A DNA stretch of 40,942 nucleotides from a virus (lineage: Duplodnaviria; Heunggongvirae; Uroviricota; Caudoviricetes), in IMG/VR virus record IMGVR_UViG_2531839450_000010, positions 1 to 40,942 of that record. One strand, written 5' to 3'. Every line of letters starts with the position of its first letter. The first letter of the stretch is position 1. The position numbers and the translations under genes were made by a program. The notes under the pieces were generated by a model that searched no databases, was not told the origin of the DNA, and saw nothing but the letters and a program-made list of their open reading frames with translations. Below, piece after piece: positions 1-40,842 of the stretch.

Positions 1-1343
<1,343 letters not shown>

Positions 1344-1444
1344 TGTTTTGAAAACGGTCACTGACCGCTTTTGTCTCTATAGCAATGCTCGAAAAGGTCG
1401 CCAGAACGGGCGACAGTATGTATTAAGCGCGGTAAAGACCATGC

Positions 1445-2356
1445 TTGGAAAGCAAGGAAACTCAGGAAGGTTTACGCCTTGGTGAGCTTTTCGGCTATTA
1501 CGGTCACGGTCGCCGACAGCTGACTGGCAAACTGGAAGTACCAGAAACCAGCGTGATCATGGTGGAAGGTCGCCCGGTCGTAATCGACAATGTTCCGGCG
1601 TGTCGCACAGTGGCTATATCTGTTGACGACAACGGCATCGTTACCCATACACAGGAAATTCTTAACACAGAGCCGGGTAAAATTGTCGCCGCGATGATCG
1701 AAAGCCGAGCTGGTGGCTGGAGCTGGGCCACTGGCGGGCGCGAGTCCGGGAAAATCGCTGTAACCACCAGCTTCCATGGTGTGGATTATGTGACAACGCC
1801 GAACTATATCAGTCTGGATCATCCTGCCAGCGCCGGAATGTTTGAAAGCGCGGATTCTAAATCTCTACTGGCAGAGTCCCTGGCGGCGCATGGGTACTCC
1901 GACGAGTCAGTGCAGGCAGTTATATCCCATTACGGCAAAATGGCTGAACTGGAAATGATGGTGGAGGCGACAGAGCGTACGGCAGAACTGGAAACCGCAC
2001 TACTCGAAAGCCAGGGCCGCCACCTCGAAGCAATGGCCAAGATCGCAGATGCTGAAGCGCGAATCGCTTTGCTGGAGGAAACAGCGGGTATCCGCGACGA
2101 TGTGCTGGCAGCAATGCAAGACGAACTGGATAACCTCCCGATCTTCGTCTCCGCCGCCCAAAAAGACGCATTCCGCCTCAAAGAACCTGGTGATGCAAAA
2201 ATCGTTGCCACACTTTTCGAATCTCTGATCAAAGTTGGCGCACGCAACTTGCCTGTCACCAGGAAAATTAAGGAGGTTCCGCAAGCGGCTAACGTCCAGG
2301 CACCGCGTGAGACAAGCATCATCACGTTTAATAATTCAATCAATCCGTTCAAATAA
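1445..2356 (+). CDS. Head maturation protein, protease/scaffold-like
   Basis: 303-aa ORF with a central coiled-coil-like Ala/Glu/Leu-rich stretch, directly after the portal-like gene. Track start is TTG, so the true start is uncertain. Confidence 0.4.
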   Translation: MESKETQEGLRLGELFGYYGHGRRQLTGKLEVPETSVIMVEGRPVVIDNVPACRTVAISVDDNGIVTHTQEILNTEPGKIVAAMIESRAGGWSWATGGRESGKIAVTTSFHGVDYVTTPNYISLDHPASAGMFESADSKSLLAESLAAHGYSDESVQAVISHYGKMAELEMMVEATERTAELETALLESQGRHLEAMAKIADAEARIALLEETAGIRDDVLAAMQDELDNLPIFVSAAQKDAFRLKEPGDAKIVATLFESLIKVGARNLPVTRKIKEVPQAANVQAPRETSIITFNNSINPFK

Positions 2357-4096: not shown

Positions 4097-5209
4097 TTAG
4101 AATTGGTAGGTCATACCAACAGCAACGATGTTGTCGGTTGCAACCTCAGATCTTTTGGTAAATTCACTTTCATCAATCAGGTTGATCTTGTAGTCAACGA
4201 AAGCGGACATATTTTTGTTGAAGTAATAAGTCGCACCCAAGTCGATGTATTCAACCAGATCCTGGCTGCCGAACGCACCAATATTTTCACCGCGAGAGTG
4301 CAGATAAGCGATGGACGGACGCAGGCCGAAATCAAACTGGTATTGAGCAACAGCTTCAAAGTTTTTCGCCTTGTTCGCGATAAAGTCATCACCGAAGACA
4401 GTCATATTCTGAGTTTCAGAATAAGTTGCAGCCAGGTAAATGTTATTTGCGTCATATTTCAGGCCAGTAGCCCATACTTCAGCAGTTTTACCAGAAGCAT
4501 TCAGAGGATCCTTTTTAGCATAGGATACCTGCCCATCAGTACGATCAGATTTTGCATAGGTTGCACCAACGCCAAATCCTTCATAATCGTAAGTAGCAGA
4601 CAGACCAAAGCCATCACCATTAGATTCAACTACGTCACGGCCTTTCCAGTTGTTCACTTTTGCAGCACTATCATTTTTACCTTGATACTGCAAAGCAAAG
4701 TTCAGACCATCAACCAGGCCGAAGAAATCATTGTTACGGTAGGTGGCTACGCCAGTAGCACGCTGGGTCATAAATACATCGGTCTGAGTCCAGGTATCTC
4801 CACCAAACTCAGGCAGCACGTCAGTCCAAGCGCCAATATCATAAGCTACACCATAGTTGCGACCATAGTCGATTGAACCATAATCAGCAAAACGGAGGCC
4901 AGCAAATGCAAGACGAGTTTTATCTTTATCAGAGCCCTCAGATTCAGTACGGTTACCTTTAAATTCGTACTCCCACTGACCAAAACCGGTTAACTGGTCA
5001 TTAATCTGAGTTTCACCTTTGAATCCCAGACGAGCATAAGTCTTATCTCCGTCATCACTAGCTGAAGAAGAGAAGTAATGTTCTGCGTTAACTTTGCCGT
5101 ACAGATCCAGTTTATTACCGTCTTTGTTGTAGATTTCAGCTGCTTGCGCAGACATTGCCATCAGGACAGATGCTGCAACCGCAGAGAGTGCCACTGTGTA
5201 TTTTTTCAT
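4097..5209 (-). CDS. Outer-membrane porin, OmpC/OmpF family, closest to phage Lc / NmpC type
   Basis: 370 aa with signal peptide [24 protein letters not shown]-terminal [16 protein letters not shown] and C-terminal aromatic motif ending ...GMTYQF, closely resembling the NmpC/Lc porin sequence as I recall it. Confidence 0.9.
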
Positions 5210-16218: not shown

Positions 16219-16590
16219 TTAAATACTCCCCGCGTTATACCACGTCCCATTAATGCAATACTGAATTGGCCTTGCCTGAGTTGTATCAATTAATTCATCA
16301 CGGTTTCCGTTAACTGAACCTGTAACGACATAACCTGACCTGTCAGACCAGCCGGGACCATTCCATGTCTGAACAGATGACAGACCGCCCAGGCGAATAC
16401 CTGTAATAAACCTTGAGTTACATTCTGCCTGCGTATATGCACCAACATCCCCCGCAGAGGGTTTGCGGGTTGTGGTGTAAAACTCTGACCAGTTAGCTTC
16501 AAAGCCATAACCATCACGCGCTGAACGATAAAAGATACCGCCGTTCTTATAATTCACGCGGAACTGTACAGCAGGGCAACTCCCCCGCAT
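16219..16590 (-). CDS. Tail-fibre C-terminal fragment in a shifted frame (continuation of the fibre gene after a frameshift)
   Basis: C-terminus ...ARPIQYCINGTWYNAGSI parallels the alternative copy's ...FRPIQKYINGTWYNVAQV. Overlaps the end of the 16547..19147 frame at a C5/G5 run. Confidence 0.7.
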   Translation of the reverse strand: MRGSCPAVQFRVNYKNGGIFYRSARDGYGFEANWSEFYTTTRKPSAGDVGAYTQAECNSRFITGIRLGGLSSVQTWNGPGWSDRSGYVVTGSVNGNRDELIDTTQARPIQYCINGTWYNAGSI

Positions 16591-19147
16591 TCATATTGAA
16601 GTGGAGGATTAATGTCGATGCGCCACTGATATCTGCATCATAAACGCCGCTATTCCAGTTCCAGCCAACAGCTTTATCATTTGCAACCTTGCTTCCTGTT
16701 TGCCCTAAAGCAAATGCAGGCTGCTGGTTTTTCGTGTTGTAGTCTCTTCGCCAGCCAGGAGCATAAGCATCACCATGATTAATATAAGTGAATTGAGCGT
16801 TAGTAATTCCGCCACCGCTGGACGTGCTCGGCGTAGTAACGCGTATGGTCATTGCGCCGCGAGTGCCAATAACTTCCACCACAGCACCTGCAAGACAAAT
16901 ATTTCCGCAACCTGTATCTGTAATGACCTTATTATTTGCATAAGCCCATGAGCCTTTGCACATCCAGTAAGGATGGTTAAATGCTCCCTGACTCTCCAGC
17001 CACGAAATAAATTGCGCGGTTGTCCAGACCTGACTATCGCCACCAATATTCAGCCATGCGCTATATGCGCGGCAGGCACCAATATTTTTGGTGAAGGTAT
17101 CTTTTCCCGGAATATCTGCGCCGTTCTGGTTTTTCTGTAATGCTCCTGCGGCTAATTCTACAGTTTGCTCAAGATTTAAATCTGCCGCCGTTAGCTCAAT
17201 ATTTTTAGAACCGTCAAACGAGACACCGTTGATAGTACACGCCGTCTGCAATTTGGTCGCTGTAGCCGCATTACCAGAGGTGTCCTGATTCCCTTTGGTA
17301 TTAACGCCGGGAACGGAATCTTTTGACGTATAGATCTGTGCCCATTCGGACCATGCCGCAGCAGTGCTATCTCTTTTGGATCGAATGAAAGCTGGTGCAT
17401 GAGCGCCATTTGTGCCACTCCAGCCAATGAGCAACTCGCCTTCACCAGTGGATGCAGCTCCCTTCAGGTGAAGTACATTCCCGTAAGTCGTCGGATAACC
17501 ATTGTTGTATGCCTCATACATCTGCAATCCAGTAGCAGCACCTTGCGTTGTACCGGTAAGCGCAGTAACGCGTCCTCTAGACGTAATTGTTGGTATCGAA
17601 ATGTTCGTAGAACCATCGAATCTGACGCCATTAATGTTTATGGCTGTTTTTAATTTCGTCGCGGTGTCGGCGTTCCCTGTCAGCGCCCCGGTGATCCCGC
17701 CGTTAAAAGTCTGGCGTGCACTCCATGTGTTAGCCGTGCTCAACAGGGGGATCTTTTCACCACTGGTACCGAGTTCTCTTAAACCAAGGTATTGGATAAC
17801 AGCAAGAACGCTTGTTTTGGCCAGAATATCGCGACCGACTGACGTTAAGTCAGTCTGAGAAACAGTGTCTGTACCGGTAAAGTACGGCAATTTATTTGCG
17901 CCTGTCGCAAGACCAGCAAGCGCGGTTAAAGTTGCATCAAGTGGCTGTTTCCCTGCCAGCGCATTTGTCATTGTTGTCGCAAAGTTCGGGTCATTGCCCA
18001 GTGCTGCTGCAAGCTCATTCAGGGTATCAAGAGCTTCAGGTGATGAGCCGACCAATGCAGAGATAGCAGCCCGTACGTAAGCAGTCGTAGCGATCTGCGT
18101 ATTGTTTGTGCCCTGTGCAGCCGTAGGCGCAGTAGGGACACCCGTTAATGCAGGGCTTGCCAAAGGCGCTTTGAGAGCCAAGGCATTGTTGATAGTTGTG
18201 CTGTAATTCGGGTCGTTATTGATCGCAGCCGCTATTTCTTTCAGCGTATCCAGTGTGCCAGGCGCACCGTTGATAAGTGCAGTTATAGCTGCCTTAACAA
18301 AGGCTGTATTTGCGATCTGCGTGCTGTTTGTACCTTGCGCTGCCGTCGGCGCTGTTGGCGTTCCTGTCAGACTCGGGCTTTCTATTGGCGCTTTGGTATC
18401 AGCCAGATCTTTTATAGACTTAACAGCTTTAGGGGTAGCCGCCATTGTTTCGCTGTCGCTGTTAGTTGCGCTACTGAGCTGAACTAATCCCTTTTGCGTT
18501 GTGCTTGCATCCTGCGCCGTATACTTGCTTTTCGCCAGATCGTAGGCTTTTTTAACTGCCAGCGAACTTGCCGCAACATCACTTCTGGTACTGGTTACAG
18601 AGTCTGAAATATCAATGCCGATAGTGCGGTTGATACGCTCTGATGTATCAATCATCTCTTGGGTAATGGCAGATACACCAGCAGGAATATTCACCGTACA
18701 AACAAGCAGCTCTCCATCTCCTAACTGATATGAATCGGTATAGGTTCTGGCAATAAATTCAGCCGCATGAATATGTGACGCTGTATTAACCTGATAGGTA
18801 TCTTCTCCAAGGAGGTATCTTCCCTTCAGCACAATTGCATATTTCTTGCCTGCACTAAGTGCAAGAGAAATATCCTTACGGTGCTGAATAGTTACCTGGT
18901 AGAATTCACCAATATCCACCGACGCCGCGCCTGCGGTTTTATCACCATCCACTGAGGTGATTAACAGGTTCATCCCACCGCCAGGCTTAGGTAAGAAACC
19001 GGCATAAAATCCCGGGTCAACAATCCCCCTGAATTTTCGGTTTAGCGCGGCTGACAGATATGGTTCGTGGTATTGCACATCAGCCACCAGAGCCAACGAC
19101 TCGGGTGATGGGTAAGTAACTGATGTAACAACTGTAACGTCATTCAT
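16547..19147 (-). CDS. S: Tail fibre protein (S-type; constant N-terminal part plus variable part), interrupted near the C-terminus by a frameshift
   Basis: Contains tandem fibre repeats (APxxSPxLTGxPTAPTAAQGTN.TQIA.TA.V). Likely start is the ATG at 19147 with an AAGGA RBS; the track start at 19234 is upstream of it. The right crossover site lies inside the gene. Confidence 0.85.
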   Translation of the reverse strand: MNDVTVVTSVTYPSPESLALVADVQYHEPYLSAALNRKFRGIVDPGFYAGFLPKPGGGMNLLITSVDGDKTAGAASVDIGEFYQVTIQHRKDISLALSAGKKYAIVLKGRYLLGEDTYQVNTASHIHAAEFIARTYTDSYQLGDGELLVCTVNIPAGVSAITQEMIDTSERINRTIGIDISDSVTSTRSDVAASSLAVKKAYDLAKSKYTAQDASTTQKGLVQLSSATNSDSETMAATPKAVKSIKDLADTKAPIESPSLTGTPTAPTAAQGTNSTQIANTAFVKAAITALINGAPGTLDTLKEIAAAINNDPNYSTTINNALALKAPLASPALTGVPTAPTAAQGTNNTQIATTAYVRAAISALVGSSPEALDTLNELAAALGNDPNFATTMTNALAGKQPLDATLTALAGLATGANKLPYFTGTDTVSQTDLTSVGRDILAKTSVLAVIQYLGLRELGTSGEKIPLLSTANTWSARQTFNGGITGALTGNADTATKLKTAININGVRFDGSTNISIPTITSRGRVTALTGTTQGAATGLQMYEAYNNGYPTTYGNVLHLKGAASTGEGELLIGWSGTNGAHAPAFIRSKRDSTAAAWSEWAQIYTSKDSVPGVNTKGNQDTSGNAATATKLQTACTINGVSFDGSKNIELTAADLNLEQTVELAAGALQKNQNGADIPGKDTFTKNIGACRAYSAWLNIGGDSQVWTTAQFISWLESQGAFNHPYWMCKGSWAYANNKVITDTGCGNICLAGAVVEVIGTRGAMTIRVTTPSTSSGGGITNAQFTYINHGDAYAPGWRRDYNTKNQQPAFALGQTGSKVANDKAVGWNWNSGVYDADISGASTLILHFNMNAGELPCCTVPREL
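17645..17786. repeat. Right inverted repeat of the invertible segment
   Basis: Reverse complement matches 13924..14065 at about 95%. Confidence 0.8.
17774..17799. other. Invertase crossover site, right (cixR-like 26-bp site)
   Basis: TTCTCTTAAACC-AA-GGTATTGGATAA; the outer half-site reverse complement TTATCCAATACC resembles the classic hix/gix half-site. Confidence 0.8.
18040..18484 (-). repeat. Tandem direct repeat (2 x ~222 bp) inside the tail-fibre gene, encoding two 74-aa fibre repeats
   Basis: The string GCGATCTGCGT recurs at 18090 and 18312, with extended similarity between the two units. Confidence 0.7.
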
Positions 19148-19158
19148 CAAGCATATCC

Positions 19159-19593
19159 TTATGCTGTTGTCGTGTTTATGGCCATAACTGCGGTATATGT
19201 TTTGCCCACATACAGCGAGTCTTCCTGGACACAAATAATGGCGATTGGCTTGTTCTCGTTATCCAGAACAACCAGAGTGTTGAATGGGTAGTTTTTCCCT
19301 TCCTGCAACTGGCTTTGATCAAGGTCCATTCGGACAGTAATTATCCCGCCTGAGTAGGTTGGGACGAGGTTGATGGTGCAAAATTGACTGGTCAGTTCTG
19401 CCAGATCGAAAACCTTTGGCAGTTCTCCAATCTCATAAGTGCCATCTCCTTTCTTAGTAACCAGTGAACTGGTACCGAAAACGGCCTTGCTGATTAAAAA
19501 TCGAGAGCCTTTGTTAATGGACGATTCAGCGCGCCGCTGATAGTAATAGTCCAACAACTGACTCTTATAGAGGTTTGTTGAGACGTCAGACAT
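19159..19593 (-). CDS. Tail-fibre-associated structural protein (P1 R-like)
   Basis: 144 aa immediately upstream of the tail-fibre gene; assigned by position. Confidence 0.4.
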   Translation of the reverse strand: MSDVSTNLYKSQLLDYYYQRRAESSINKGSRFLISKAVFGTSSLVTKKGDGTYEIGELPKVFDLAELTSQFCTINLVPTYSGGIITVRMDLDQSQLQEGKNYPFNTLVVLDNENKPIAIICVQEDSLYVGKTYTAVMAINTTTA

Positions 19594-30870: not shown

Positions 30871-30887
30871 TTTGCTCTAATAAATTT
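30871..30887 (+). promoter_or_regulatory. C1 operator-like 17-mer (Op53-like) upstream of kilA
   Basis: TTTGCTCTAATAAATTT, one mismatch to the consensus, about 70 bp upstream of the kilA start. Confidence 0.7.
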
Positions 30888-30956: not shown

Positions 30957-31757
30957 ATGCAACAAACATTCAATGCGGATATGAATATATCAAACCTTCA
31001 TCAAAATGTCGATCCTTCAACCACTCTGCCTGTTATTTGTGGTGTTGAAATTACGACCGACCGCGCTGGCCGTTACAACCTTAATGCTCTACACAGAGCG
31101 AGCGGACTCGGTGCCCATAAAGCGCCAGCTCAATGGCTAAGAACGCTGTCAGCCAAACAGCTCATCGAAGAGCTTGAAAAAGAAACTATGCAGAATTGCA
31201 TAGTTTCGTTCGAAGGCCGTGGCGGCGGCACTTTTGCCCATGAATTGCTCGCAGTGGAGTACGCAGGTTGGATTTCTCCCGCGTTTCGGCTGAAGGTAAA
31301 CCAGACATTTATCGACTATCGAGCTGGAAGATTACAACCTGCTATTCCGCAGAGCCTCCCAGAAGCTCTCCGTTTGGCTGCTGACCTGGCAGAGCAAAAG
31401 CAACGGCTGGAGCAAAAAATGCTGATGGATGCACCTAAAGTCGAATTCGCCGAACGCGTTGCTACCGCCAGCGGGGTTCTAATCGGCAACTATGCCAAAG
31501 TGCTCGGCCTGGGCCAAAACTATCTCTTCACCTGGTTGCGTGATAACGGAATTCTGATCGCAACCGGTGAACGCAGGAACGTCCCCAAACAAGAATACAT
31601 ATCCCGTGGGTATTTCACCCTTAAAGAAACCGTGATCGATACAAGCAATGGAAGCAGGATTTCTTTCACGACTCGTATAACCGGCAAAGGTCAGCAGTGG
31701 CTGATGAAGCGATTGCTTGATGCTGGTGTGCTGGTACCTGTCGCGGCAACGCGCTAA
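30957..31757 (+). CDS. kilA: KilA-type protein (KilA-N plus KilAC domains)
   Basis: 266 aa; C-terminal domain paralogous to Ant; sits between ant and repL as in the P1 lytic replicon. Confidence 0.7.
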   Translation: MQQTFNADMNISNLHQNVDPSTTLPVICGVEITTDRAGRYNLNALHRASGLGAHKAPAQWLRTLSAKQLIEELEKETMQNCIVSFEGRGGGTFAHELLAVEYAGWISPAFRLKVNQTFIDYRAGRLQPAIPQSLPEALRLAADLAEQKQRLEQKMLMDAPKVEFAERVATASGVLIGNYAKVLGLGQNYLFTWLRDNGILIATGERRNVPKQEYISRGYFTLKETVIDTSNGSRISFTTRITGKGQQWLMKRLLDAGVLVPVAATR

Positions 31758-31822
31758 CAGACGTAGTAAGAACCACCAGCATTGTAATGCTGGCTAAAGT
31801 CACTTTCCTGAGCTGTATAACG

Positions 31823-32630
31823 ATGAGCGATTTTACTTTTTCTGGCTATGAATTGGCCTGCTTTGTAACACACTCCGGTCTATCCCGTAGCGCCGGGCAT
31901 ATCCTGTCGCAATGTGCAAATCTCGCGGCAACAACCAGTGAATACTTCATTCACAAGCCTCACCGCCTGATCGCGGCAGAAACTGGTTATAGCCAATCAA
32001 CCGTCGTTCGTGCATTCCGTGAAGCTGTAAACAAAGGAATTCTGTCTGTAGAGATTGTTATCGGCGATCACCGTGAACGTCGCGCTAACCTGTACCGGTT
32101 TACACCATCCTTTTTGGCCTTCGCACAACAAGCCAAAAATGCGCTGATTGAAAGCAAATTAAAGATCTCTTCAGCGGCAACCAAGGTTAAAGCTGTTCTC
32201 GCTAAGACATTGGCTTTATTTAATTTTTTATCCACACCCCCATGTCAAAATGATACCCCCTCCCCCTGTCAGGATGACGTGGCAATAAAGAATAAGAAGT
32301 CACAAGTTAAAAAACAAAAGATCAGTTTCCGGCGGTGCCGGAACGACCAGACTCAAAAAATTGACTTCATGGATCGCTGAGGCAAAAGCAAAGGCTGACA
32401 ATCTGCGGTTATCCAAAAAACGCGCTCAAAAACATGAGTTCAAGCAGAAAGTAGAGGCGGCAGCGCGGAAATATGCTTACCTGAAGAACAAGCGTTCTCC
32501 TGATATTTGCGGGATATCAAACTTCGATAATCTGCCGCATTGCATGACGGTAAACGAAGCTCTTAATGCGGTTTTCGCCAAAAATAAAGATAACGAAAAA
32601 TGGGGTATACCGGCAGGATTCAGAGGGTGA
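31823..32630 (+). pseudogene. repL: Lytic replicon initiator RepL, reading frame interrupted by a +1/-1 shift in an A-rich tract
   Basis: Frame A (from MSDFTFSGYELACF...) stops at 32380, while an overlapping frame open from about 32289 continues ...SVSGGAGTTRLKKLTSWIAEAK... to 32630; together about 280 aa. A6 and A4 runs at 32309..32319 and an A6 run at 32355..32360 are the candidate slip points. Confidence 0.6.
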
Positions 32631-32893
32631 TAGATTGCTCTAATCTGGAGTCACCTGGCATTTTCAGTTTGAGGTCGGAGATGCAATCTGATTTTTACAG
32701 TTAGCGATCACTTTTTGCAGGGCATCGTTGAGACATATCCATATATAAAAACCCAAAGCCAGATCAAAACTTGTACTGATAAAAACACAGCTAACCATCA
32801 CAACTTGTAACGTTTATAATGAGTAAAAGAGTGATACATTGCTACTTTTACATATTTTTTGACTTAATTCATGGATAGTAATGGAGATGCATA

Positions 32894-33949
32894 ATGACTT
32901 ATGCTGGCACACAAACAGCAGATAACGCCGGGGATACCATGAAATCGTATGCTATTTGGAATAATAAAGGTGGCGTAGGAAAGACCTACTTATCTTTCGC
33001 TATGGCCTGTGAATACGCAAGGCAAAATCCAGAAAAGCGTATTATTTTTGCAGATATGTGCCCGCAGGCTAACTTATCTGAAATATTGCTCGGCGGTAAC
33101 GGTACTGGTGCTGCTAACCTCGCGAGCTTAATTCAACAACGAAAAACTGTCGGTGGGTACTTTGACAGAAGAACTCGCAGCCCCCACATGCTTACCGGTT
33201 CAGAAACAAGTTTCTTAATTCATGTCTCTGAAATTAACGGACATGTCCCTGACAATGTATTTTTGATTGCAGGCGACCCAAGCCTGGAAGTTCAGGCGCA
33301 AGTAATCAATCAGTTAAGCAGCGTAAACTTACCAGTTGACTCATGGAAAAGCATCCACCTGTGGCTACGAGATTTGCTTGTTGCATGTGCACAACAACAA
33401 GGTATCGAAGAAACCATTTGCTTTATTGATTGCAACCCCAGTTTCTCTGCCTATACCGAACTATCACTGATAGCAGCAAATGCAATTATAATACCTTGCT
33501 CAAGTGATGGTTCTTCGGCTCGAGCAGTGGATAACCTAAGCCAGTTGGTTTATGGCGTTGGAGTACAAAACGATTATCGTTCTGTTAACTTTTACGATCG
33601 GTGTCAACAGTTTGGTCTAGCGGTTCCTGTCATTCATTCTCTAGTTTTTAATCGTTCGACAGAGTATGACAAACGAGCAAGTAAAGCGTTTTCGGCAATG
33701 TTCGACGAAATCAGGGATAGAGCTGAAAATCTGCGGACGAATAAACCAACAGCGTTCCAAGGCGGAAATTTAAAAACGTTTACTGTGCCAGATAACCATT
33801 CCGTAGCTATAGTATCTTCCCATCTAGGAAGACCTCTATTTGATATAAAACCAGGCAGATATCAGATCCATGATACTGAGCCACAAATCAATAATGAACC
33901 ATTAGAAAGATATGGTGCAGCAATCGAACGTCTTGTTCAGAGTTTATAG
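32894..33949 (+). CDS. ParA/MinD-family (deviant Walker A) ATPase with no adjacent ParB partner
   Basis: Deviant Walker A motif WNNKGGVGKTY near the N-terminus and a Walker B-like FIDCNP. An alternative start at 32939 (MKSYAIW...) is more typical for the family; the ATG at 32894 has a GGAG RBS. Confidence 0.75.
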   Translation: MTYAGTQTADNAGDTMKSYAIWNNKGGVGKTYLSFAMACEYARQNPEKRIIFADMCPQANLSEILLGGNGTGAANLASLIQQRKTVGGYFDRRTRSPHMLTGSETSFLIHVSEINGHVPDNVFLIAGDPSLEVQAQVINQLSSVNLPVDSWKSIHLWLRDLLVACAQQQGIEETICFIDCNPSFSAYTELSLIAANAIIIPCSSDGSSARAVDNLSQLVYGVGVQNDYRSVNFYDRCQQFGLAVPVIHSLVFNRSTEYDKRASKAFSAMFDEIRDRAENLRTNKPTAFQGGNLKTFTVPDNHSVAIVSSHLGRPLFDIKPGRYQIHDTEPQINNEPLERYGAAIERLVQSL

Positions 33950-33980
33950 TGGCTTATCTCACTCATAATGGCTAAAAAAA

Positions 33981-34010
33981 GGCTGCAACAGAGGTTGCAG
34001 CCTTTTTTAT
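33981..34010. terminator. Bidirectional rho-independent terminator
   Basis: A7 tract, GGCTGCAAC-AGAG-GTTGCAGCC stem-loop, then TTTTTTAT; sits between convergent genes. Confidence 0.75.
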
Positions 34011-34019
34011 AAAATTACA

Positions 34020-34307
34020 TTAACAGACTGGTAGCGATAGTAAATTATTATTCCATCGATTGTCTGCATACGTTCTAATAAACTGCCTTCCACCATTACC
34101 AGGATTAACAACCCCAACGTCTACACGATTACCTGCATTATCTGTTACATAGAATGTATGGAGATTATTATCAATAGCATTAATTACCTGCTCAACAGTC
34201 CATTTCCCATTGCTAGTATTAAATTGAGGACTTCCCACATGAGTAATATGCTCATGGATTGATTGCGAGCCGGAGAGGGTAATGCAAGTAATGCGTACAT
34301 CAGCCAT
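34020..34307 (-). CDS. Small conserved hypothetical protein (possibly DUF3892-type; family not verified)
   Basis: Likely start is the ATG at 34307 with an AGGAAG RBS 7 nt upstream, giving 95 aa: MADVRITCITLSGSQSIHEHITHVGS...NNNLLSLPVC. The track ORF starts further upstream. Confidence 0.5.
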   Translation of the reverse strand: MADVRITCITLSGSQSIHEHITHVGSPQFNTSNGKWTVEQVINAIDNNLHTFYVTDNAGNRVDVGVVNPGNGGRQFIRTYADNRWNNNLLSLPVC

Positions 34308-34595
34308 ATATACTTCCTTTATTCTATAGATTATAGGAATTGCGTTGTCCAAAAAACAAACAACACAATAACAATAAAGAAACATACACACAACAAAAAC
34401 TAACGCTATTTATTGATAGATTTGCCTGATGAATGCTAGCTCTCTTTGCTGCCTAGCACTCAAACAAATAACAGAAGAAAGCCCCAGATAACATTACGCG
34501 TCCTGCAAGACGCTTAACATTAATCTGAGGCCATATCCATGCTTAGCATATCTAGATTAACCCTCTCCCCTTTTAAGGAGCAAGGAATTTTACTG

Positions 34596-40698: not shown

Positions 40699-40842
40699 AC
40701 ACAAGGCACTTGTGTGAATCCCTTTTCGGAAGAGATTTTATTGAAAGTCACTTGTTGACTTTCTCGTGACAAGCAATTTTTTATTTTTTTCGGGAGTAGG
40801 GGAAGAAGGTAAAATCCAAGGTGAAATCGTGGCGATTTCACC
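40699..40842. promoter_or_regulatory. Upstream region of the capsid operon carrying three palindromes
   Basis: ACACAAG-GCA-CTTGTGT (40699..40715), GAAAGTCA-CTTGT-TGACTTTC (40743..40763) and GGTGAAATCG-TGG-CGATTTCACC (40820..40842). Confidence 0.4.

What the first reader, a model, noticed from the sequence alone, without database searches (positions are those of the whole stretch)
32289..32380. repL reading frame is broken in an A-rich tract
The frame starting MSDFTFSGYELACF... terminates at 32380, but an overlapping frame continues with ...SVSGGAGTTRLKKLTSWIAEAK... to 32630, giving about 280 aa in total if joined. The overlap contains A6, A4 and A6 runs. Either this is a homopolymer sequencing error, or the lytic replicon initiator is inactivated, which would affect lytic replication and suggest a decaying or defective element.
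Basis: seen in the sequence. Interest (0 to 1): 0.55.

Follow-up and report, generated by a model that had tools for sequence, protein, structure and literature searches.

The report
repL frameshift is a sequencing artefact
The break in the phage P1-type replication gene repL is really in this deposited sequence, but it is almost certainly a base-counting error in two neighbouring runs of A, so the finding is ordinary and says little about the biology of the plasmid.

Summary
The window is the whole contig ADUR01000016.1 of the E. coli OK1357 draft, a P1-like phage-plasmid. Its repL gene is split into 31787-32380 and 32289-32630. The cause is two separate one-base contractions in adjacent runs: A7-C-A5 in relatives is A6-C-A4 here (32309-32319), a net loss of 2 bases.

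None of 458 complete-genome E. coli copies, 77 IMG/VR copies or 10 contigs with identical KilA shares this state. The same contig has other one-base run-length oddities seen in no or almost no relative. They break pro (+G at 1447) and tail-fibre gene S (C4 to C5 at 16582), and two lie between genes. Substitutions private to this contig are mostly synonymous (56:20, no nonsense), so there is no sign of gene decay.

The identical double contraction recurs in two unrelated read-set assemblies. In one, 99.4% identical to P1, all 7 gaps are homopolymer contractions.

Best explanation: a platform-specific homopolymer miscall (about 0.85). A real inactivating mutation remains possible (about 0.12). 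The tract coincides with the published AT2 / 13-mer-like element of the candidate lytic origin oriL, so a real change would affect both the protein and the origin. Interest is low.

The parts
30871..30887 (+). C1-controlled operator OrepL (Op53), overlapping the P53/PkilA promoter that drives kilA-repL; intact
   Evidence: Aligned with P1 NC_005856 49810-49826. Three differences in 168 columns (one A-run length gap, two substitutions), none inside the operator; the three Dam GATC sites are conserved.
30957..31757 (+). kilA, intact 266-codon ORF, first gene of the lytic replicon operon
   Evidence: ORF list. This exact protein is very common in public assemblies (listed in 22,421 blocks of the index). 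In 10 of 10 contigs read, it is followed by a 280-281 aa RepL.
31787..32380 (+). repL 5' frame as deposited: 197 codons from ATG 31787 (185 from ATG 31823). RepL residues 1-176 are followed by a 21-residue out-of-frame tail (QKISFRRCRNDQTQKIDFMDR) and TGA.
   Evidence: Annotated as EFZ71893.1 'replication protein repL [E. coli OK1357]'. Weak, sub-threshold MarR_2 (winged helix-turn-helix) match at residues 62-96.
32228..32236 (+). DnaA-box consensus TTATCCACA inside repL, upstream of the A/T-rich tract
   Evidence: Pattern match. Two DnaA sites adjacent to the A/T-rich regions of repL are described in PMC9948254. Equating this match with one of them is inference.
32283..32323 (+). Equivalent of the published AT2 A/T-rich region of repL, the candidate DNA-unwinding element of oriL; 41 bp here and 43 bp in P1
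   Evidence: PMC9948254: a 43-bp, ~80% A/T region ending in the 13-mer-like motif GATCTTTTTGTTT is required in cis for RepL-driven replication. That motif is the reverse complement of P1 AAACAAAAAGATC. The window stretch is 76% A/T. The 5' boundary is my inference, because the figure is not held.
32309..32314 (+). A6 run; A7 in relatives (first one-base contraction)
   Evidence: Alignments A1, A2 and A6. All 5 references covering the site have one more A. 72 of 77 IMG/VR copies keep a 13-nt tract.
32316..32319 (+). A4 run; A5 in relatives (second one-base contraction), directly followed by Dam site GATC 32320-32323
32311..32323 (-). 13-mer-like motif, GATCTTTTGTTTT here and GATCTTTTTGTTT in P1. 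It still fits the oriC 13-mer consensus GATCTnTTnnTTT.
   Evidence: for the sequence; for the motif and consensus as quoted in PMC9948254. The fit to the consensus was checked by eye.
32289..32630 (+). repL 3' frame, open from 32289. From 32322 it encodes RepL residues 179-281. It is annotated as a separate 89-aa protein from TTG 32361.
   Evidence: EFZ71894.1 'replication protein repL domain protein [E. coli OK1357]'.
32355..32360 (+).
   Evidence: A6 in 83 of 83 related sequences.
1447..1448 (+). GG where relatives have G. This +1 frameshift in head-processing gene pro (start 1336) gives a stop after 49 codons.
   Evidence: Alignment A3, translation. 0 of 486 E. coli complete-genome records share it.
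16582..16586 (-). C5 (G5 on the coding strand) where relatives have a run of 4. This +1 frameshift in tail-fibre gene S splits it into 16547..19234 and 16219..16590.
   Evidence: Alignment A4. 0 of 334 E. coli records share it.
32692..32696 (+). Intergenic T5 run; T6 in 67 of 68 related sequences
40777..40782 (+). Intergenic T6 run; T7 (13) or T8 (1) in related sequences, never T6

Best explanation
The frame break is a sequencing miscall of homopolymer length, not a property of the plasmid. The window is a contig of the E. coli OK1357 draft genome and carries a P1-like phage-plasmid. In the real molecule repL is most likely the normal 281-codon gene with the tract GTT-A7-C-A5-GATC. The sequencing chemistry under-counted both adjacent A runs by one base, giving A6-C-A4 and a net -2 shift. 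It also mis-counted at least four other runs in this 41-kb contig. The underlying biology is then the standard P1 lytic replicon. kilA and repL are transcribed from the C1-repressed P53 promoter. RepL acts on an origin inside its own coding sequence, for which the A/T-rich AT2 region, the stretch containing this tract, is the required cis element. Shown here: the two contractions, their absence from relatives, the other private run-length changes, and recurrence of the identical state in error-laden assemblies. Inferred: that the reads are wrong, and which platform was used. My recollection is that this 2010-11 project used 454 pyrosequencing. That is not verified here.
For: (1) Two independent one-base contractions 7 nt apart cannot arise from one contiguous deletion. 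Adjacent same-direction miscalls are expected from context-dependent homopolymer error. Two independent mutations would rarely fall so close together. (2) The state is unique among relatives: 0 of 458 RefSeq complete E. coli records, 0 of 77 IMG/VR copies, 0 of 10 contigs with identical KilA, and no exact match in genome contigs or viral contigs. (3) The same contig has further one-base run-length changes found in no or almost no relative: +G at 1447 breaking pro, C4 to C5 at 16582 breaking S, T6 to T5 at 32692 and T7 to T6 at 40777 in intergenic DNA. There are no nonsense mutations, IS insertions or larger deletions in about 36 other genes. (4) Substitutions private to this contig are 56 synonymous to 20 non-synonymous with no nonsense, the signature of continuing purifying selection. 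(5) The exact 185-aa truncated product is found in only three read-set (Logan) assemblies. SRR040454_430 is 100% identical to the window, so it is taken to be this strain's own reads. SRR124119_888 is a different background with kilA also broken by other indels. ERR14686364_9 is 99.39% identical to P1 itself; all 7 of its gaps are one-base contractions of runs of 5 or more, including this same A7 to A6 plus A5 to A4 pair, and several other genes come out short. The tract therefore demonstrably produces this exact double miscall. (6) The single A7 to A6 contraction is far more frequent in IMG/VR, where all five cases come from isolate-genome records within one narrow range of IMG identifiers (5 of 77, on different backgrounds). 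In RefSeq complete genomes it is 2 of 458 (Fisher p = 0.0009). The RefSeq cases are flagged 'frameshifted', one of them next to two other frameshifted genes.
Against: An independent assembly of what appears to be the strain's own reads (SRR040454) reproduces A6-C-A4. The reads therefore mostly agree with the deposited sequence. For an artefact, this requires a systematic rather than random per-read error. Ten runs of 7 and two of 8 elsewhere in the contig were not flagged as miscounted, so the error is not a blanket under-call. The sequencing platform could not be established: literature searches for the accessions and the strain gave nothing useful. Homopolymer slippage is also the commonest real frameshift mechanism. 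At least one other frameshifted repL allele (C5 to C4, 154 aa) is on 28 contigs from several sources and may be real.
Confidence: 0.85

Rival explanations
1. The frameshift is real. Two replication-slippage events in the A7 and A5 runs truncated RepL after residue 176, removing the C-terminal 105 residues, and shortened the AT2 element of oriL by 2 bp. The plasmid could still be maintained through its separate plasmid replicon but could not start lytic replication. With pro and S also broken, it would be a recently crippled prophage-plasmid, perhaps from a mismatch-repair-deficient lineage.
For: The contracted lengths are reproduced by an independent assembly of the strain's reads. Slippage in runs is the usual natural frameshift route. 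Other truncated repL alleles exist in public data, including a 154-aa C5 to C4 allele on 28 contigs. Three genes needed only for lytic growth are hit, while the genes in the window that serve plasmid life are intact.
Against: It needs four independent frameshifting indels in coding DNA, two of them 7 nt apart, with no accompanying nonsense or excess non-synonymous change (56:20). It also needs the identical double event to have arisen or been transferred onto two other backgrounds, and both of those come from visibly error-laden assemblies. It is absent from all 458 + 77 + 10 better-characterised relatives. Similar private run-length changes also occur in intergenic DNA.
Confidence: 0.12
2. 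The break is bypassed by programmed recoding, either a +1/-2 ribosomal frameshift or transcriptional slippage on the A runs. Full-length RepL would then be made at a low, regulated level from the deposited sequence.
For: The overlap 32289-32380 leaves room for a shift. A-rich runs can be slippery, and A AAA AAC resembles a -1 heptamer (my own knowledge of frameshift sites).
Against: Recoding sites are conserved, yet every relative has a single uninterrupted frame at this position. The shift needed is +1 or -2, not the -1 that the heptamer would favour (frames computed). Runs of 6 and 4 A are shorter than the runs known to give efficient transcriptional slippage (my own knowledge, not tested).
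Confidence: 0.01

Closest known systems
Bacteriophage P1 lytic replicon: kilA-repL operon with oriL inside repL (NC_005856 repL 50726-51571; AT2 region of Huan et al. 2023, PMC9948254)
   Same: 98.2% DNA identity to P1 over repL. Same gene order: ant, Op53/P53, kilA, repL. Same operator and Dam sites, same DnaA-box consensus, and the same A/T-rich tract ending in GATC. The repaired protein differs from P1 RepL at 6 of 281 residues.
   Different: As deposited, the ORF is split and the AT2-equivalent is 41 rather than 43 bp. Downstream, P1's rlfA/rlfB are replaced by a ParA-family ATPase gene and a DUF3892 gene, as in many P1-like plasmids.
Homopolymer-length miscalls of flow-based (454, Ion Torrent) and nanopore sequencing, which create false frameshifts in draft assemblies
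   Same: All the private indels are single bases. Five of six change a run of 4 or more. They are scattered over coding and non-coding DNA. The same tract shows the same miscall in other assemblies that carry many such errors.
   Different: One change is G to GG, not a long run. The platform of the OK1357 reads was not established here, and most long runs in the contig agree with relatives.
Simple-sequence contingency loci (phase variation by slippage in a coding homopolymer)
   Same: A coding mononucleotide tract shows length variants in public sequences (A6 in 5 of 77 and 2 of 458 copies). Each variant switches the gene off.
   Different: The run is only 7 nt. Variants are rare, and in IMG/VR all come from records within one narrow range of IMG identifiers. 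No strain is known with both states, and the variant assemblies carry other indels too.

Membership tests
P1 RepL / lytic replicon | Sequence homology to P1 repL and RepL | tested here: met
   98.2% nt identity to NC_005856 and 99% to P1-like plasmids. PF26868 Phage_P1_RepL is on both halves. The repaired protein has 6 differences from P1 RepL in 281 residues.
P1 RepL / lytic replicon | Position downstream of kilA under the C1-repressed P53 promoter and Op53 operator | tested here: met
   Operator at 30871-30887 and kilA at 30957-31757 are intact and collinear with P1.
P1 RepL / lytic replicon | One uninterrupted ORF of about 281 codons | tested here: not met
   As deposited, the ORF is split at 32309-32319 by a net -2. 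Restoring A7 and A5 restores 281 codons. Judged to be a sequencing artefact, not a property of the element.
P1 RepL / lytic replicon | Internal cis element (AT2 with 13-mer-like motif) needed for RepL-driven replication | tested here: inconclusive
   The element is present at 32283-32323 but is 2 bp shorter. The 13-mer still fits GATCTnTTnnTTT. The effect of the length change was not tested in PMC9948254, which used substitutions only.
P1 RepL / lytic replicon | Initiates replication when derepressed | not testable with these tools
   Needs an induction or plasmid-amplification assay.
Homopolymer sequencing artefact | Indel absent from all close relatives | tested here: met
   0 of 458, 0 of 77 and 0 of 10 share it. 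The exact truncated protein occurs only on this contig and three read-set assemblies.
Homopolymer sequencing artefact | Other single-base run-length errors in the same assembly, in coding and non-coding DNA | tested here: met
   Positions 1447, 16582, 32692 and 40777.
Homopolymer sequencing artefact | The same miscall recurs at the same tract in unrelated, error-laden assemblies | tested here: met
   ERR14686364_9: 7 of 7 gaps against P1 are run contractions. SRR124119_888 carries other indels as well.
Homopolymer sequencing artefact | Reads from an unbiased platform show the longer run | not testable with these tools
   No read-level access. The platform of SRR040454 is unknown here. An assembly of that run reproduces the short runs.
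Programmed ribosomal frameshift or transcriptional slippage site | The two-frame arrangement is conserved among homologues | tested here: not met
   All relatives have a single frame.
Phase-variable contingency locus | Frequent tract-length polymorphism within lineages, with both ON and OFF states | tested here: inconclusive
   A6 variants occur in 5 of 77 and 2 of 458 copies on different backgrounds. They are accompanied by other indels, and in IMG/VR all come from a narrow range of IMG identifiers. Within-strain switching is not testable.

The most novel reading that the evidence does not exclude
The A7-C-A5-GATC tract, which is also the 13-mer-like end of the AT2 unwinding element of the P1 lytic origin, could be a true slippage hot spot. 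Natural P1-like plasmids, including that of OK1357, would then recurrently lose one or two A's there. That would switch off the RepL protein and alter the origin in one step, locking the element in the plasmid state.
Probability: 0.05. Interest if true: 0.4.

Novelty: not a real feature. Interest (0 to 1): 0.07.

Why it matters
The finding matters mainly as a caution. The frame break should not be read as evidence that this P1-like element is defective. The same tract produces false 'truncated RepL' proteins in public databases: EFZ71893.1, EFZ71894.1, and probably WP_248698208.1, which has the identical 185-aa sequence. If the change were real it would be more interesting. It would hit both the initiator protein and the A/T-rich AT2 element that a 2023 study found necessary in cis for RepL-driven replication. 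That would be a natural length mutant of a still poorly defined origin.

Tried and rejected
- My first script for private indels missed the pro and S insertions because gap placement differed between references. Direct alignments and a left-normalised version fixed this.
- The same all-references criterion failed again for the Logan contigs, because one reference has A7-T-A5. Pairwise comparison was used instead.
- Exact-pattern scans for the window allele in genome contigs and viral contigs found nothing.
I replaced them with a gapped pattern built from window sequence.
- Literature searches for ADUR00000000, ADUR01, the assembly accession, the run accessions and strain OK1357 gave no information on the sequencing platform.
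- The local Pfam and NCBIfam copies gave no RepL family hit for the repaired protein, only a sub-threshold MarR_2 match for the fragment. PF26868 comes from precomputed hits.
- The repaired 281-aa and 269-aa proteins are not in the 15-billion-protein collection. No independently sequenced intact copy of this exact allele was found.
- A single 2-nt deletion was rejected: no contiguous deletion converts A7-C-A5 to A6-C-A4.
- Programmed frameshifting was rejected for lack of conservation.
- Relaxed selection downstream of the break was considered. Only one private substitution (G242C at 32508) lies there, about the number expected from the contig-wide rate.

Full report
**What is there**

The window is the complete 40,942-bp contig ADUR01000016.1 of assembly GCA_000188855.2, Escherichia coli OK1357. 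It is a stretch of a P1-like phage-plasmid, collinear with P1 from the portal gene to the major capsid gene. It is 97-99% identical to hundreds of P1-like plasmids.

The flagged region is the lytic-replicon gene repL. Upstream lie the C1 operator Op53 with the P53 promoter (30871-30887) and an intact kilA (30957-31757).

- The frame from ATG 31787 (P1-style start) or ATG 31823 (MSDFTF...) stops at TGA 32378-32380.
- A second frame is open from 32289 to 32630 and encodes the rest of RepL.
- The submitters annotated the two pieces as separate proteins, EFZ71893.1 and EFZ71894.1.

**Cause of the break**

Alignment with P1, P7-type and plasmid copies shows the cause. Relatives read GTT-A7-C-A5-GATC. 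The window reads GTT-A6-C-A4-GATC at 32306-32323.

These are two separate one-base contractions of adjacent runs. No single contiguous deletion produces this change. Restoring one A in each run restores an 846-nt ORF whose product differs from P1 RepL at 6 of 281 residues.

**Is it in any relative?**

No.
- None of 458 matching records in 5,426 complete E. coli genomes has the window's 71-nt stretch. Two have A7 to A6 only, and both are flagged 'frameshifted' by the annotation pipeline. In one of them the genes on both sides are also frameshifted.
- A gapped-pattern scan of IMG/VR returned 77 copies. 72 have a 13-nt tract, 5 have A6-C-A5 and none has A6-C-A4.
- Ten contigs encoding an identical KilA all carry a 280-281 aa RepL. 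The 9 whose tract was found by the pattern all have 7-N-5 spacing.

**What else is odd in the contig**

A left-normalised comparison with eight references, plus direct alignments, shows that every small indel private to the window in conserved DNA is a single base.
- +G at 1447 (G to GG) truncates the head-processing gene pro after 49 codons.
- C4 to C5 at 16582-16586 splits tail-fibre gene S.
- The third and fourth are the two A losses in repL.
- The pro and S changes are absent from 486 and 334 E. coli records respectively.
- Two intergenic runs are also shorter than in nearly all relatives: T5 at 32692 against T6 in 67 of 68, and T6 at 40777 against T7 or T8 in 14 of 14.

There are no nonsense codons, insertion sequences or larger deletions in the other roughly 36 genes. 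Substitutions private to the window are 56 synonymous to 20 non-synonymous outside the hypervariable tail-fibre segment. That pattern indicates a genome under continuing purifying selection, not a decaying one.

**The most telling result**

The exact 185-aa truncated product (MSDF...FMDR) occurs on three contigs assembled independently from public read sets.
- One, from run SRR040454, is 100% identical to the window over 3,783 nt. It is therefore taken to be this strain's own data. The short runs are thus in the reads, not an artefact of the submitter's assembler.
- The other two are different plasmids.
- The contig from ERR14686364 is 99.39% identical to P1 itself over 8.3 kb. All seven of its gaps against P1 are one-base contractions of runs of five or more. 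They include exactly A7 to A6 plus A5 to A4 in repL, and several other genes on that contig come out short.
- The contig from SRR124119 has the same double contraction together with other indels that split kilA.

This tract therefore demonstrably yields this precise double miscall on homopolymer-sensitive data. Three independent real double mutations are much less plausible, given that they are found only in error-laden assemblies and never among more than 500 better assemblies.

The single A7 to A6 variant is also enriched in IMG/VR, where all five cases come from isolate-genome records within one narrow range of IMG identifiers: 5 of 77 against 2 of 458 in RefSeq complete genomes (Fisher p = 0.0009). 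It sits on backgrounds that differ by 2-11 substitutions.

**Weighing the explanations**

I put the artefact explanation at about 0.85. Four points count against it.
- The assembly of the strain's own reads reproduces the short runs, so the error would have to be systematic in the reads.
- Most long runs in the contig agree with relatives.
- I could not establish the platform. My recollection that this 2010-11 project used 454 pyrosequencing is unverified, and literature searches were empty.
- Real frameshifted repL alleles probably exist: a 154-aa C5 to C4 allele is on 28 contigs from several sources.

A real double slippage mutation is therefore kept at about 0.12. Programmed recoding is effectively excluded by the lack of conservation.

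**How the locus works if the sequence is corrected**

It is the standard P1 lytic replicon. When C1 repression is lifted, P53 transcribes kilA and repL. RepL then drives replication from an origin inside its own gene.

Huan et al. 2023 (PMC9948254) showed the following.
- A fragment containing AT2 alone suffices as a target in trans.
- AT2 ends in a 13-mer-like motif, GATCTTTTTGTTT.

That motif is the reverse complement of AAACAAAAAGATC, which is exactly the tract discussed here. The A-rich tract is therefore part of the candidate unwinding element of oriL as well as coding sequence.

If the change were real, the truncated protein would keep the N-terminal region with a weak winged-helix signal and lose 105 C-terminal residues. 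The cis element would be 2 bp shorter, although it would still fit the 13-mer consensus. Whether that matters is untested, because the paper used substitutions only.

**Comparison with what is known, and novelty**

By homology and context the locus is a member of the P1 RepL family. The one defining feature it fails, a single ORF, fails for what is most likely a technical reason. Nothing here is new biology, so I rate it 'not a real feature' with low interest.

The residual novel reading is that this origin tract is a real slippage hot spot that recurrently disables lytic replication in natural P1-like plasmids. I put that at about 5%.

Noticed in passing
window 1336-2356 (indel at 1447-1448): Head-processing gene pro is frameshifted by an extra G (G to GG) and stops after 49 codons. 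The change is absent from 486 E. coli records. It is probably the same class of sequencing error as the repL break.
   Followed up: yes
window 16219-19234, minus strand (indel at 16582-16586): Tail-fibre gene S, in its variable C-terminal part within the Cin-invertible segment, is split by a run of 5 where relatives have 4. The change is absent from 334 E. coli records.
   Followed up: yes
window 32692-32696, 40777-40782; also 30800, 34588, 38943, 3224: Intergenic homopolymer lengths differ from relatives. The first two are nearly unique to this contig. The other four are polymorphic among relatives and may be natural.
   Followed up: partly
window 32508: This is the only substitution in repL private to this contig (GGC to TGC, Gly242Cys in the repaired protein). 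It lies downstream of the break. One such change is about the number expected by chance.
   Followed up: partly
window 4097-5209, minus strand: An intact 370-aa OmpC-like porin gene sits where P1 has isaA, IS1 and isaB. Some other P1-like plasmids, such as CP057446 and CP032067, share it.
   Followed up: no
window 32894-34391: Downstream of repL, P1's rlfA/rlfB are replaced by a 351-aa ParA-family ATPase gene and a DUF3892 gene, as in several P1-like plasmids. A C1-operator-like half site, ATTGCTCTAAT, remains at 32634-32644.
   Followed up: no
related sequences: P0018/P0019/P0021 (154 aa); one IMG/VR copy: A different truncated repL allele ends ...NDTPSPVRMTWQ. From its protein sequence it looks like a C5 to C4 contraction in the run at window 32266-32270 (inference). 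It is on 28 contigs from NCBI and Logan, including complete genomes, so it may be a real circulating pseudogene allele.
   Followed up: partly
L029, L032, L054, L086, L098 (IMG/VR); CP016549 second copy; CP090325: A single A7 to A6 contraction of the same tract recurs on different backgrounds, often with other homopolymer indels nearby. A T5 to T4 change about 405 nt downstream accompanies it in four of the five IMG/VR contigs.
   Followed up: partly
L018, L033, L072, L080, L083, L095 and L036, L039, L040, L064, L091: Natural substitution variants of the tract keep its length: A7-T-A5 and A7-C-A-G-A3. This suggests that the 13-nt spacing is conserved.
   Followed up: no
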